In this document: piece after piece, positions 30,801-33,800 of the stretch | Numbering within the stretch: position 1 is the stretch's first letter | Layout of the letters: every line of letters starts with the position of its first letter | Assembly (NCBI RefSeq): GCF_000026545.1 | Contig: NC_011601.1 | DNA length: 64,000 bases | Reading direction: 5' to 3' (one strand) | Source of the DNA: Escherichia coli O127:H6 str. E2348/69 | GTDB taxonomy: Bacteria > Pseudomonadota > Gammaproteobacteria > Enterobacterales > Enterobacteriaceae | Made by a program: the position numbers

Positions 30801-33800
30801 CATACAGTTAAGTGTATTATCGGCGCAGAGCCCGGGCGAACCGGGCTTTGTTTTATTTCATTAACAGCAAAGACTTTCACTTCAGGTTAACGTTCTGGGG
30901 GGCGACTTTGAGCGTGTTGATAAGCTGAAATGAATTCTGGTTTAGATACTTTTACCAGGCATTTTTCGTCATAGCACGCGACCAATGTAATGCCGCCAGC
31001 GCGGAAAGTTTTTTGCCTATCTTTTTCCAGCCATTCAACCTGTACAGGAGGTCTGGTGCCAATTTTGCGTATGAGGTTCCATCAATAATGGACCATAATT
31101 TGGCTGACTGATTAACACCGAATACATTCCCCTGATTATATTTTTTAGGGATAACATTAAAAATGTCAGGTTAATCTTAATTAATTCTTTGGCTAATATT
31201 TTGTGTTGTTATTTTTTGTGGAAGGCAAGCCGCAATGGCAAAATAGGGGTGGTTGTAATAATAAAAACATGATACTAACTATATATTGATCGTTGAATTG
31301 TTGGCATGTAACACGCTACAGCGAGTAACGTTGGTAATGAAATATAATCAACATGGATAGGTGAAAATTAATTATGAGCTTTATGGCTTTTGTAACTTGT
31401 TTGACAATTGCATTTGTCGCCGGTTTTGTTGTTGCCAGAAAATTGACACTCCGAAAAGTTGCCTCATCGGTGATCATCACTAAATCGCAACCAGTCCCTT
31501 CATCTGCAACTCCCCCTGCTGCTAAGGCGTCGACAAGGAGTTATACACCGCAGAAAACCTATCGTGATTCTCGTTGGCAAGAACGAGATGAGTTATTTCA
31601 GGGAATGGTTGCCGAAGGCATTTTATTGGAAGGAAAAGAGTGGTTAATTACGCGTTGTGAGAAAATCTATTTCGATAATCTGGAGAAATGGTTTGGACAT
31701 TATTGCCATATCCATTGCCAGGTCTCTCTGGGGCGCTTGATCAACTTTCCAGAACAACCCGAGTTTAGCGAAGAAGAAAGAAAGCGTTTCTTTGCTATTT
31801 ATAATGGCATGGCAATGGATTATGTGCTGGTTTCAAAGAAGAACAATAAAATAGTCGGTGTTATTGAGCTGGATGATCCGAGTCATGAAAGGGCAGATCG
31901 CATTATTCGTGACCATTGGTTGGATACGATTATGACTCTTGCTCGGGTGCCTTTTGTACGAGCTTCTGTCACTAAATTGGAGGAAATCCCTCCGGTCTGG
32001 GATACCCGTGACAAAATTCGCCCATTAGTCGCGGCGAAAAAGAGTGAACCGTTGCATTAACCAGGTATCCCCGGTCGGGGCTTCTCATCCCCCCGGTGTA
32101 TGCAATATACGAAAAAAAGCTCGTACTTTCGTACGAGCTCTTCTTTAAATATGGCGGTGAGGGGGACCGCCTGAAATAAATCTGACTTAATCCAGGGGTG
32201 TTATATAATTTCATTATAAACAATGTATTACACTTTTTGTTGTCCGATATTATCTAATGTATTCTTAGTGAAGCGAGGGACTAATGGCATACTGGATGGC
32301 ATACCAAAGTGACGGGAATTAGCGTATGGCAGTATTGACGGATACGAAAGCAAGACATATCAAACCTGATGACAAACCATTGCCCCATGGGGGAATTACC
32401 GGACTGACCCTTCATCCTTCTTCAGTAAAGGGGCGGGGGAAATGGGTTTTTCGTTATGTAAGTCCGGTGACACAAAAAAGACGTAATGCTGGATTGGGAA
32501 CTTACCCAGAGGTCAGTATTGCTGAAGCTGCACGTACTGCCCGGATAATGCGAGAGCAACTTGCTGCAGGTGATGATCCTCTGGAGATTAAAAAGGCTGA
32601 ATCTGAGAAAGTCGTTATCCCAACATTTGCCGATGCAGCCAGGCGTGTACATGCAGAACTGTCTCCTGGATGGGAAAATCCAAAGCATGTAAGGCAGTGG
32701 TTATCGACGCTTGAGAATTACGCGTTTCCTCAACTGGGAGCAAAAACGCTGGATTCGATTACGGCTGCGGACGTGGCAGAAACACTGCGTCCAGTCTGGT
32801 TAACCTTGTCAGAAACGGCAAGCCGGGTTAAACAGCGCATTCATGTTGTTATGCAGTGGGGATGGGCGCACGGTTTTTGTGTGGCAAACCCTGTTGATGT
32901 GGTTGACCATTTGCTTCCTCAGAAGACAAGAGGACGTGATGAACACCAACCCGCAATGCCCTGGAGGCAGTTACCGCTTTTTGTGGCGACCAGTGTGTAT
33001 ACAGATGAACCTTATAATGTTACCCGGGCACTGTTATTAATGGTGATACTTACAGCAACCCGCTCGGGCGAAGCCAGGGGAATGCGCTGGGCTGAAATTG
33101 ATTTTCATAAGCGGATATGGACTATACCCGCAGAAAGAATGAAAGCCAGGATACAGCATCGAGTTCCTTTATCCCGGCAGGCCATGCACATTCTGGAAAA
33201 TATACGTGGTTTGCATGATGAACTAGTGTTTCCTTCTCCCAGAAAGCAGCAGATCCTTTCAGATATGGTGTTGACGAGTTTTCTGCGTAAAAAGAAAGCC
33301 ATCAGTGATATACCGGGGCGAGTTGCCACGGCACATGGTTTTCGCTCAACATTCAGGGACTGGTGTAGTGAACAGGGGTATTCGCGGGATCTGGCGGAAA
33401 GGGCGCTCGCTCATACGCTGAAAAATAAGGTTGAGGCGGCATATCATCGTACTGATCTACTGGAGCAGCGTGTACCGATGATGCAGGCATGGGCGGATTA
33501 TGTGATGTCTCAATTTGCTAAAAACACTAAGGAATTCGCTTAGTTTCATGGACTGGCATACTCAGAGTAGCCAAATGGTTACTGCTTTCTTTTTTGAAAA
33601 ATAAATGCAATGCCAGTTCGTAATGAAAACCTGGCATTGCACTCAGATAACGATTATTCATTATTATAACGAATAATACACTTGTGATAATTTATTTTTT
33701 GTCCGATAGTATCTATAGTCTGTTTCGGTGATACTTCAGTATGTTTTGATGATCACAAATGAAAACTCCGGCATCGAATGCAGGAATATTTAGTTTTTTT

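What the first reader, a model, noticed from the sequence alone, without database searches (positions are those of the whole stretch)
31374..32060. Membrane-anchored nuclease-like orphan directly after phoH, where K-12 has the pga operon
A 228-aa ORF with an N-terminal transmembrane helix, a Cys/His cluster and a C-terminal acidic PD-(D/E)xK-like motif (VIELDDPSHE) has an AT-rich promoter region and its own terminator. It lies between the conserved phoH terminator and the putative att remnant, so it is accessory DNA outside the integrase-bounded element, possibly a stand-alone defence or DNA-processing protein.
Basis: partly seen in the sequence, partly recalled or inferred. Interest (0 to 1): 0.35.

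Follow-up and report, generated by a model that had tools for sequence, protein, structure and literature searches.

The report
Membrane-tethered Vsr-like nuclease beside phoH
The ORF is a real, selectively maintained gene for a small nuclease-like protein (DUF2726 family) anchored to the inner membrane; it sits after phoH in about a fifth of E. coli and in Salmonella, has relatives on thousands of conjugative plasmids and inside type VI secretion operons, and its function is untested, most plausibly cutting nucleic acid that enters at the membrane.

Summary
Window 31374-32060 (+) in EPEC E2348/69 encodes the 228-aa protein WP_000009232.1, which matches Pfam DUF2726 (E 4.7e-17).

**Structure.** The AlphaFold2 model (pLDDT 88) shows an N-terminal transmembrane helix, a disordered linker of about 40 aa, and a globular domain. 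The closest solved folds are Vsr, the I-Bth0305I homing endonuclease and DUF559. E96, D149, E165, H171 and D180 are invariant in 118 diverse relatives. Flanking charges predict an N-out/C-in topology, so the nuclease domain faces the cytoplasm.

**Locus.** The gene lies outside the serX-integrated island. It marks one of two arrangements of the phoH-serX interval: 1018 of 5426 complete E. coli genomes carry it, and 4379 carry pgaD next to phoH. It is syntenic in E. albertii and Salmonella and under purifying selection, so it is ancestral rather than a recent orphan.

**Relatives.** They include the IncF plasmid ORF 'yihA', an F-like traT-traD insert, ICE transfer regions, Vibrio inoviruses, and a conserved slot (tssA-X-tssF) in T6SS operons.

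**Function.** It is untested. My best guess (about 0.4) is a SNIPE-like, membrane-confined nuclease acting on incoming nucleic acid. The Cys/His cluster is not conserved, and the 'own terminator' is shared with serX.

The parts
30023..30811 (+). phoH, as annotated in RefSeq (262 aa). It is the conserved upstream neighbour.
   Evidence: L001 11174-11962 corresponds to window 30023-30811.
30825..30851 (+). phoH intrinsic terminator. Homology with K-12 ends just after it, at about 30854, which marks the left edge of the replaced segment.
30852..31373 (+). AT-rich intergenic region (GC 0.32-0.39). It holds a perfect TATAAT at 31343-31348, conserved between Escherichia and Salmonella, and the Shine-Dalgarno sequence AGGTGA at 31359-31364.
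   Evidence: The promoter role is inferred, not shown.
31374..32060 (+). CDS of the 228-aa DUF2726 protein (WP_000009232.1).
   Evidence: dN/dS is 0.25 within E. coli and about 0.04 for the domain against Salmonella.
31380..31463 (+). N-terminal transmembrane helix (residues 3-30, hydrophobic core 3-22), followed by R22, K23, R27 and K28. The predicted topology is N-out/C-in.
   Evidence: In 124 relatives with such a helix, a mean of 4.0 K/R follow it and 0.27 precede it, and 120 of 124 follow the rule.
31464..31583 (+). Low-confidence, Pro/Ser/Thr/Ala-rich linker (residues 31-70). It is variable in length and sequence among homologues and ends in the subfamily motif SRWxxRDELF.
31584..32042 (+). 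Globular Vsr/DUF559-like PD-(D/E)xK nuclease domain (residues 71-223), modelled mostly at pLDDT above 90.
31860..31889 (+). Catalytic-strand motif VIELDDPSHE (E165, D167, D168, H171). The partner residues E96 (31659-31661), D149 (31818-31820) and D180 (31911-31913) are also invariant.
   Evidence: these residues are invariant in 118 diverse family members.
32069..32165 (.). Single copy of the ~98-bp unit annotated 'RtT sRNA' in other genomes, which lies 3' of serX. It includes the bidirectional hairpin terminator at 32118-32139. K-12 has four tandem copies.
32152..32165 (-). 14-nt remnant of the serX (tRNA-Ser GGA) 3' end. This is the att site at the junction with the island; the intact tRNA gene is not in the window.
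32326..33543 (+). Tyrosine (P4-type) integrase, the first gene of the serX-integrated island that carries lifA/efa1-like genes. It is not part of the DUF2726 unit.

Best explanation
The gene encodes a single-pass inner-membrane protein. A very short N-terminus faces the periplasm. A flexible linker of about 40 residues then holds a Vsr/DUF559-type PD-(D/E)xK endonuclease domain at the cytoplasmic face of the membrane.

Shown or strongly supported by computation:
- family membership, fold, an intact catalytic signature and the membrane anchor with its topology signal;
- purifying selection;
- an ancestral position between phoH and serX in Escherichia and Salmonella, with most E. coli carrying the pga-dgcT-ycdU segment instead.

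Inferred: the membrane tether keeps a weakly specific nuclease away from the nucleoid. The nuclease would then act mainly on nucleic acid that appears at the inner membrane, such as injected phage genomes, conjugatively transferred ssDNA or filamentous-phage DNA. In that case it would be a one-gene entry guard or exclusion nuclease that uses the same spatial self/non-self logic shown experimentally for SNIPE. This would also explain why relatives ride on conjugative plasmids, ICEs, inoviruses and T6SS clusters.

The confidence of 0.4 refers to the inferred entry-guard role. The structural description (membrane-tethered Vsr-like DUF2726 nuclease domain) I hold at about 0.85.

For: **Catalytic signature.** E96, D149, E165, H171 and D180 are invariant in 118 diverse sequences.

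**Anchor as a family trait.** 123 of the top 150 relatives have an N-terminal hydrophobic helix. A mean of 4.0 K/R follow it and 0.27 precede it. Some relatives have a signal peptide, a periplasmic domain, a TM helix and then DUF2726, which fits a C-in topology.

**DNA as substrate.** 5 of 118 relatives carry a topoisomerase-I Zn ribbon. One of these sits next to a type II R-M system and HipA.

**Selection and synteny.**

**Link to mobile elements and DNA-transfer machines.**
- The IncF ORF 'yihA' has the same architecture.
- 4518 of 72,556 plasmids hold a homologue, and 4016 of those are conjugative.
- One copy lies between traT and traD.
- ICE copies follow traG.
- Vibrio inoviruses carry one.

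**Experimental precedent for the logic.** SNIPE has an N-out/C-in TM helix and a cytoplasmic nuclease. Removing its TM helix makes it toxic through cleavage of host DNA (bioRxiv 10.1101/2025.11.03.685801).
Against: - No experiment exists on any DUF2726 protein; the full-text search found eight papers, none functional.
- There is no PADLOC or NCBIfam hit. The only PHROG match is a family of unknown function.
- The protein has no recognisable sensor or DNA-binding domain equivalent to SNIPE's DUF4041.
- A fixed, vertically inherited locus is unusual for a defence gene.
- The T6SS-embedded clade suggests a role tied to a secretion machine rather than to defence.
- Vsr-like and RAP-like folds also include repair enzymes and RNA-binding proteins, so the substrate (DNA or RNA) is open.
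- Topology and catalytic activity are predictions only.
Confidence: 0.4

Rival explanations
1. It is an accessory component of envelope-spanning machines (T6SS, conjugative T4SS, inovirus assembly) and processes nucleic acid or another phosphodiester substrate for them. On this view the chromosomal E. coli/Salmonella copy is an orphaned or re-purposed version.
For: Homologues 44-54% identical to the E. coli protein, with the same TM helix, SRW motif and catalytic residues, occupy a fixed slot between tssA and tssF. In Rahnella and Citrobacter the ORF overlaps the end of tssA. This holds in Rahnella, Citrobacter, Enterobacter, Pantoea and metagenome clusters. An Erwinia copy lies 132 bp upstream of vgrG. 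Other copies lie inside tra operons.
Against: The E. coli, E. albertii and Salmonella copies have no T6SS or T4SS partner at the locus. The SPI-19 adjacency in some Salmonella comes from insertion at serX (PMC2907695). The gene is monocistronic, with its own conserved -10 element. No T6SS or T4SS mechanism is known to need a cytoplasmic nuclease. The Pantoea deserta copy is frameshifted, so the gene is dispensable there.
Confidence: 0.2
2. It is a housekeeping nucleic-acid enzyme at the membrane. It could be a Vsr-like nicking or repair endonuclease, or a RAP-like RNA endonuclease. It might cooperate with the neighbouring PhoH ATPase under phosphate starvation, or degrade imported DNA for nutrition.
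For: The top fold matches are the Vsr repair endonuclease and RAP domains. Adjacency to phoH is conserved in Escherichia and Salmonella.
Against: A strong terminator and about 520 bp separate it from phoH. 81% of E. coli genomes keep phoH but lack this gene. None of the homologue contexts examined in other genera was next to phoH. Low GC and carriage on mobile elements argue against a core housekeeping role.
Confidence: 0.12
3. It is a toxin: a T6SS cargo effector or another contact-dependent nuclease toxin.
For: PD-(D/E)xK and VRR-Nuc DNases are established T6SS effectors (PMC9635880). Homologues lie in T6SS clusters and next to vgrG.
Against: No immunity-sized ORF accompanies it at the T6SS, plasmid and chromosomal loci examined. 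It has no PAAR, MIX, Rhs or other trafficking domain. An N-terminal TM anchor with C-in topology is not how cargo effectors are built. The T6SS clusters already carry a separate VRR_NUC-containing protein encoded next to vgrG, the position of TseV-type effectors.
Confidence: 0.05
4. It is a silent or decaying relic with no current function in E2348/69.
For: The AT-rich upstream region is typical of silenced, horizontally acquired DNA. The gene is missing from most E. coli without obvious harm.
Against: The reading frame is intact in at least 1018 E. coli genomes, E. albertii and Salmonella. dN/dS is 0.25 within E. coli and about 0.04 in the domain between genera. All catalytic residues are kept.
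Confidence: 0.05

Closest known systems
Pfam DUF2726 (PF10881), listed in the PD-(D/E)XK superfamily survey of Steczkiewicz et al. 2012 (PMC3424549)
   Same: Clear member: 62.4 bits against a cutoff of 24.7. It carries the family-invariant E...D...E-x-D-D-x-x-H...R..RD signature.
   Different: The family has no assigned function. The published notes record only its restriction-endonuclease fold and a link to mobile elements. They do not note the N-terminal membrane tether or the plasmid, ICE, inovirus and T6SS contexts documented here.
Vsr endonuclease, DUF559 and the I-Bth0305I homing endonuclease (Vsr-like branch of PD-(D/E)xK)
   Different: Sequence identity is only 10-14%. The protein lacks the Vsr zinc site and the Vsr N-terminal DNA-intercalating segment. 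It has a membrane anchor and linker that those soluble enzymes lack.
SNIPE, the membrane-bound nuclease that cleaves phage DNA during injection (Saxton et al., bioRxiv 10.1101/2025.11.03.685801)
   Same: It has a single N-terminal TM helix with N-out/C-in topology, a cytoplasmic nuclease domain and single-gene organisation. The proposed logic is the same: the membrane tether prevents cleavage of the cell's own DNA.
   Different: The nuclease fold is unrelated (GIY-YIG against PD-(D/E)xK). The DUF2726 protein has no DUF4041 domain and is much smaller (228 aa). No phage phenotype is known. It is a functional analogue only, not a homologue.
IncF plasmid ORF 'yihA' (between finO/yigB and repA2) and the F-like traT-traD insert
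   Same: It has the same architecture, an N-terminal TM helix followed by K/R and then DUF2726 with ELDDxSH...RRRD. The pSE11-2 traT-traD copy is about 27% identical to the chromosomal protein.
   Different: It is plasmid-borne, 167-217 aa, and lacks the SRWxxRDELF motif. It is also uncharacterised. The name is unrelated to chromosomal yihA/engB.

Membership tests
Pfam DUF2726 (PF10881) | Profile score above the curated gathering threshold | tested here: met
   62.4 bits against 24.7, E 4.7e-17, residues 90-205. All 118 aligned relatives also match.
PD-(D/E)xK nuclease superfamily, Vsr/DUF559-like branch | Restriction-endonuclease-like alpha/beta core fold | tested here: met
PD-(D/E)xK nuclease superfamily, Vsr/DUF559-like branch | Conserved acidic/His catalytic residues on helix 1 and strands 2-3 | tested here: met
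   E96, D149, E165 and H171 are invariant in 118 sequences. The canonical Lys of (D/E)xK is absent, as in Vsr and DUF559.
PD-(D/E)xK nuclease superfamily | Metal-dependent phosphodiester cleavage | not testable with these tools
   This needs biochemistry on the purified domain.
SNIPE defence system | DUF4041 domain plus a C-terminal GIY-YIG nuclease | tested here: not met
   Pfam finds only DUF2726 and a sub-threshold DruA hit. It is therefore an analogue, not a member.
SNIPE defence system | N-terminal single TM helix, N-out/C-in, with the nuclease in the cytoplasm | tested here: inconclusive
   This is predicted from hydropathy, the AF2 helix and the positive-inside rule. No topology assay has been done.
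   There is no NERD hit at E up to 1.
Known anti-phage defence systems (PADLOC-DB v2) | Match to any model of a defence-system protein | tested here: not met
   0 families at E up to 1.
T6SS cargo or specialised effector | Trafficking domain (PAAR, MIX, Rhs, etc.) and an adjacent cognate immunity gene | tested here: not met
   No such domain is present. No immunity-sized ORF lies between the gene and tssF or its other neighbours.
   Only C111 is invariant in the close subfamily. H110, H112, H114 and C95 vary, and none is conserved family-wide.

The most novel reading that the evidence does not exclude
Proteins with an N-terminal TM helix and a DUF2726 domain form a large, unrecognised class of one-gene, membrane-confined nucleases. 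They would cleave nucleic acid as it crosses the inner membrane, using the same spatial self/non-self logic as SNIPE but built on a Vsr-like fold. They would be deployed by IncF plasmids (yihA), ICEs, inoviruses and a T6SS lineage, and as an ancient chromosomal gene at phoH-serX in Escherichia and Salmonella, where most E. coli have the pga biofilm operon instead.
Probability: 0.3. Interest if true: 0.7.

Novelty: new member of a known kind. Interest (0 to 1): 0.4.

Why it matters
If the entry-guard reading is right, membrane confinement of a nuclease would be a general strategy for telling self from non-self, one that evolved at least twice on unrelated nuclease folds. It would also give a function to a gene carried by about 6% of sequenced plasmids (IncF 'yihA'). 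That function could affect plasmid and phage traffic in clinical E. coli and Klebsiella.

Independently of function, the locus is a clean two-arrangement polymorphism: DUF2726 alone, or pga-dgcT-ycdU. It splits E. coli about 19:81 and correlates with whether a strain can make PNAG. The conserved tssA-X-tssF slot marks an undescribed accessory gene of one T6SS lineage.

Tried and rejected
- **Family and structure databases.** NCBIfam and PADLOC gave no hits. The PDB sequence and profile searches found nothing meaningful.
- **NERD and a zinc cluster.** Both are rejected.
- **Remnants of the gene in K-12.** None was found by tblastn or blastn.
- **Salmonella T6SS adjacency (L004).** I first read it as linkage. 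It is explained by SPI-19 insertion at serX, with the same kind of short serX 3'-end scar (15 nt there) (PMC2907695).
- **STM1127.** I guessed this was the Salmonella orthologue. It is in fact a MurR-type regulator of a ManNAc cluster and is not this gene.
- **Salmonella '151-aa' proteins.** They looked like forms lacking the TM helix. They are start-codon miscalls, and the full ORF is intact.
- **Loci search.** Alignment A2 was too diverse for the search for related loci, so A1 was used instead.
- **ICE-type homologue (P0016).** It is not on PLSDB plasmids.
- **Degraded minus-strand ORF fragments upstream of the gene.** No Pfam match.
- **The eLife SPI-22 paper.** It gave no information on a gene between tssA and tssF.
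- **afdb50 fold library.** It was not available.
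Full report
**Identity of the window and the ORF.** The region 30850-32330 is 100% identical to the chromosome of EPEC strain E2348/69, NZ_CP059840.2. The ORF at 31374-32060 (+) encodes 228 aa and is annotated there as WP_000009232.1, 'DUF2726 domain-containing protein'. It matches Pfam DUF2726 at E 4.7e-17, scoring 62.4 bits against a gathering score of 24.7, over residues 90-205. Other searches added little:
- NCBIfam and PADLOC gave nothing.
- PHROGs gave one family of unknown function.
- The PDB gave no sequence or profile relative.

**Anatomy.**
- Hydropathy peaks at residues 3-21 (Kyte-Doolittle 2.43).
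- An AlphaFold2 model built on 118 homologues has mean pLDDT 88.4. It shows a helix at 3-30, a low-confidence linker at 31-70, and a globular alpha/beta domain at 71-223, mostly above pLDDT 90.
- Foldseek against the PDB and BFVD gives weak E-values, but the same fold class heads both lists.
- In an alignment of 118 diverse relatives (21-95% identity), E96, D149, E165, H171 and D180 are invariant. L103, L166, D167, D168, R176 and R179 are nearly so.
- The Cys/His cluster (C95, H110-C115) is real in this sequence but is not conserved.

**Topology.** An exhaustive profile search found 4481 relatives at E up to 1e-3. Of the top 150, 123 have a strongly hydrophobic helix, in most of them at the N-terminus. 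In 124 proteins with such a helix, the 15 residues after it hold a mean of 4.0 K/R, against 0.27 in those before it, and 120 of 124 follow this pattern. By the positive-inside rule the family norm is N-out/C-in, with the nuclease domain in the cytoplasm on a flexible tether. A subset has a signal peptide, a periplasmic domain, a TM helix and then DUF2726, which fits the same topology. This is a prediction, not an assay.

**Locus structure.**
- *Left side.* The phoH terminator lies at 30825-30851. About 520 bp of AT-rich DNA follow (GC 0.32-0.39).
- *Promoter candidate.* A perfect TATAAT at 31343-31348 and the start-codon region are conserved between Escherichia and Salmonella, while the rest of the spacer is not. 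This suggests a proximal promoter, but that is inference.
- *Right side.* One copy of a 98-bp unit lies at 32069-32165. Other genomes annotate this unit as 'RtT sRNA', and it contains the hairpin at 32118-32139. K-12 has four tandem copies of the unit next to serX.
- *att site and island.* TGGCGGTGAGGGGG at 32152-32165 equals the 3' end of tRNA-Ser(GGA) serX. After it the sequence diverges into an island that begins with a P4-type integrase gene at 32326. No tRNA gene is in the window.
- *Island-free comparison.* In an island-free strain the order is phoH, DUF2726, serX, ghrA.
Its terminator is shared with the convergent serX.

**Population genetics.**
- K-12 has pgaDCBA, dgcT, IS3, ymdE and ycdU between the same two breakpoints, and no remnant of the DUF2726 gene.
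- Among 5426 complete E. coli genomes, 1018 carry the DUF2726 arrangement at 80% coverage or more, and 4379 carry the phoH-pgaD junction. The sum is 5397.
- This is what two alternative arrangements would give. I did not cross-tabulate individual genomes.
- Absence of pga and ycdT between phoH and serX in some strains has been reported, without mention of this gene (PMC5635171).

**Evidence that the gene is ancestral.**
- It is present at the same position in E. albertii at 88% identity.
- It is present in Salmonella enterica at 71-74% identity. One locus reads phoH, DUF2726, IS, serX, ghrA, ycdXYZ, csgG.
- The common Salmonella '151-aa' protein is a start-codon miscall, and the full 219-aa ORF with its TM helix is intact.
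- dN/dS is 0.25 within E. coli and about 0.04 for the nuclease domain between E. coli and Salmonella. Synonymous sites are near saturation, and the N-terminal 70 residues are much more divergent.
- The gene is thus ancestral at this locus and under purifying selection, not a recent orphan.

**Relatives elsewhere.**
- *ICEs.* Homologues at 42-44% identity, with the same TM helix and the same SRWxxRDELF motif, lie in ICE transfer regions after a TraG_N gene and a small opposite-strand ORF.
- *Erwinia.* One homologue lies 132 bp upstream of vgrG.
- *T6SS operons.* A clade sits in a fixed slot of T6SS core operons. The order is tssM, tssA, X, tssF, tssG, tssJ, vgrG and then a VRR_NUC-containing protein. 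In Rahnella and Citrobacter the ORF overlaps the end of tssA. The arrangement is seen in Rahnella, Citrobacter, Enterobacter, Pantoea (frameshifted there) and metagenomic contigs. No immunity-like ORF accompanies it.
- *Salmonella SPI-19.* The T6SS adjacency in some Salmonella comes from SPI-19 insertion at serX (PMC2907695).
- *F-like plasmids.* More distant relatives (about 27% identity) lie between traT and traD in pSE11-2. The true ORF there is 167 aa with a TM helix, whereas RefSeq aa.
- *IncF 'yihA'.* The IncF ORF annotated 'yihA', between finO and an endonuclease gene on one side and repA2 on the other, has the same architecture.
- *Plasmid prevalence.* 4518 of 72,556 PLSDB plasmids hold a homologue of the plasmid copy, and 4016 of those are predicted to be conjugative.
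- *Inoviruses.* Six Vibrio inoviruses encode one, located after the secretin gene in the one examined.
- *DNA-binding fusions.* Five of 118 relatives add a topoisomerase-I Zn ribbon. One of these sits beside a type II R-M system and HipA.
- *Literature.* It notes only the restriction-endonuclease fold, mobile-element neighbours, an AbiJ-NTD3 fusion and bystander mentions on mcr-1 plasmids.

**Interpretation.** The firm points are these. The protein is a DUF2726 member with a Vsr-like fold, an intact catalytic signature, a membrane tether and a conserved, selected gene.

The biological role is inferred. I favour a membrane-confined nuclease acting on nucleic acid that arrives at the inner membrane, either as defence or as exclusion, for two reasons:
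- The tether is the family's defining addition to a nuclease that lacks any obvious specificity domain.
- The family is concentrated on elements that move DNA across envelopes.

SNIPE shows experimentally that exactly this topology lets a nuclease spare the nucleoid and hit injected DNA. SNIPE is not homologous: it has a GIY-YIG nuclease and a DUF4041 domain.

Several facts count against the idea:
- There is no experimental support and no hit in defence databases.
- The protein has no sensor domain.
- The locus is fixed and vertically inherited.
- The T6SS-embedded clade points instead to an accessory role in a secretion machine.

I put the entry-guard reading at about 0.4, machine accessory at 0.2, a housekeeping repair or RNA role at 0.12, toxin at 0.05 and relic at 0.05. 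The remainder is unassigned.

**Verdict.** The gene is an annotated member of a known but uncharacterised family. The new elements are:
- the membrane-tether rule for the family;
- the equivalence with IncF 'yihA';
- the T6SS slot;
- the two-arrangement polymorphism with pga.

Interest is moderate, at 0.4.

Noticed in passing
L021 5962-6648; L024 5797-6483; L031/L032 6001-6522; L033 6001-6648; L034 6001-6657; L026 6007-6603: A clade of TM+DUF2726 proteins occupies a fixed slot between tssA and tssF in T6SS core operons. The order is tssM-tssA-X-tssF-tssG-tssJ-vgrG, followed by a VRR_NUC-containing gene. It is seen in Rahnella, Citrobacter, Enterobacter, Pantoea and metagenomic contigs. The Pantoea deserta copy is frameshifted. 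I found no description of this gene as a T6SS accessory gene.
   Followed up: partly
L035 4866-5456; L036 4845-5495; L013 6944-7447: The IncF plasmid ORF annotated 'yihA' (between finO/an endonuclease gene and repA2) and a traT-traD insert in pSE11-2 are TM+DUF2726 proteins. 4518 of 72,556 PLSDB plasmids hold a homologue. RefSeq calls the pSE11-2 copy at 122 aa, which loses the TM helix of the 167-aa ORF. The region between finO and repA in one Klebsiella plasmid also encodes PIN and phospholipase-D-family proteins.
   Followed up: partly
window 30613-30806 (-): There is an Rfam match to Ysr251 (Yersinia antisense sRNA) at 188.7 bits against a gathering score of 100. It covers the full model and lies antisense to the 3' end of phoH.
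   Followed up: no
window ~30900-31160 (-); L020 5441-5742; L002 12103-12296: The DNA between the phoH terminator and the AT-rich promoter region reads as broken minus-strand ORF fragments shared by E. coli and E. albertii. The fragments include MLISQSNYGPLLIK... E2348/69 has a 27-bp deletion relative to strain S1-ZIM-01-A. This may be a degraded small gene. It has no Pfam match and is absent from Salmonella.
   Followed up: partly
L003 12962-13579 compared with window 32069-32165: K-12 has four tandem copies of the ~98-bp 'RtT sRNA'-like unit between ycdU and serX, whereas E2348/69 has one. Copies of the unit are scattered through E. coli genomes, with a median of 2 and up to 13 places per genome.
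   Followed up: no
L015-L017 7001-7456; clusters P0010/P0011: The very common Salmonella '151-aa DUF2726 protein' is a start-codon miscall. The upstream in-frame sequence encodes the TM helix and linker, giving an intact 219-aa ORF.
   Followed up: yes
window 32326 onward (L001 13477-25481): The serX-integrated island begins with an integrase, a DUF3987 protein, an HTH protein and a 620-aa hypothetical protein. It also contains a TOTE conflict-system primase pseudogene, IS fragments and a large TcdA/TcdB-type glycosyltransferase gene (lifA/efa1-like). Salmonella SPI-19 used the same serX site and left a 15-nt scar (PMC2907695).
   Followed up: no
L018; L025: A 1450-bp 'Collinsella sp.' MAG contig carries the E. 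coli gene at 95% identity. A 'Chryseobacterium sp. 18061' contig carries the Citrobacter-type T6SS locus. Both look like binning or labelling errors in the public records.
   Followed up: no
L014 5794-6435: Vibrio cyclitrophicus inoviruses (11-13 kb) encode a 213-aa DUF2726 protein directly after the g4p secretin gene, followed by a putative RNA methyltransferase.
   Followed up: no
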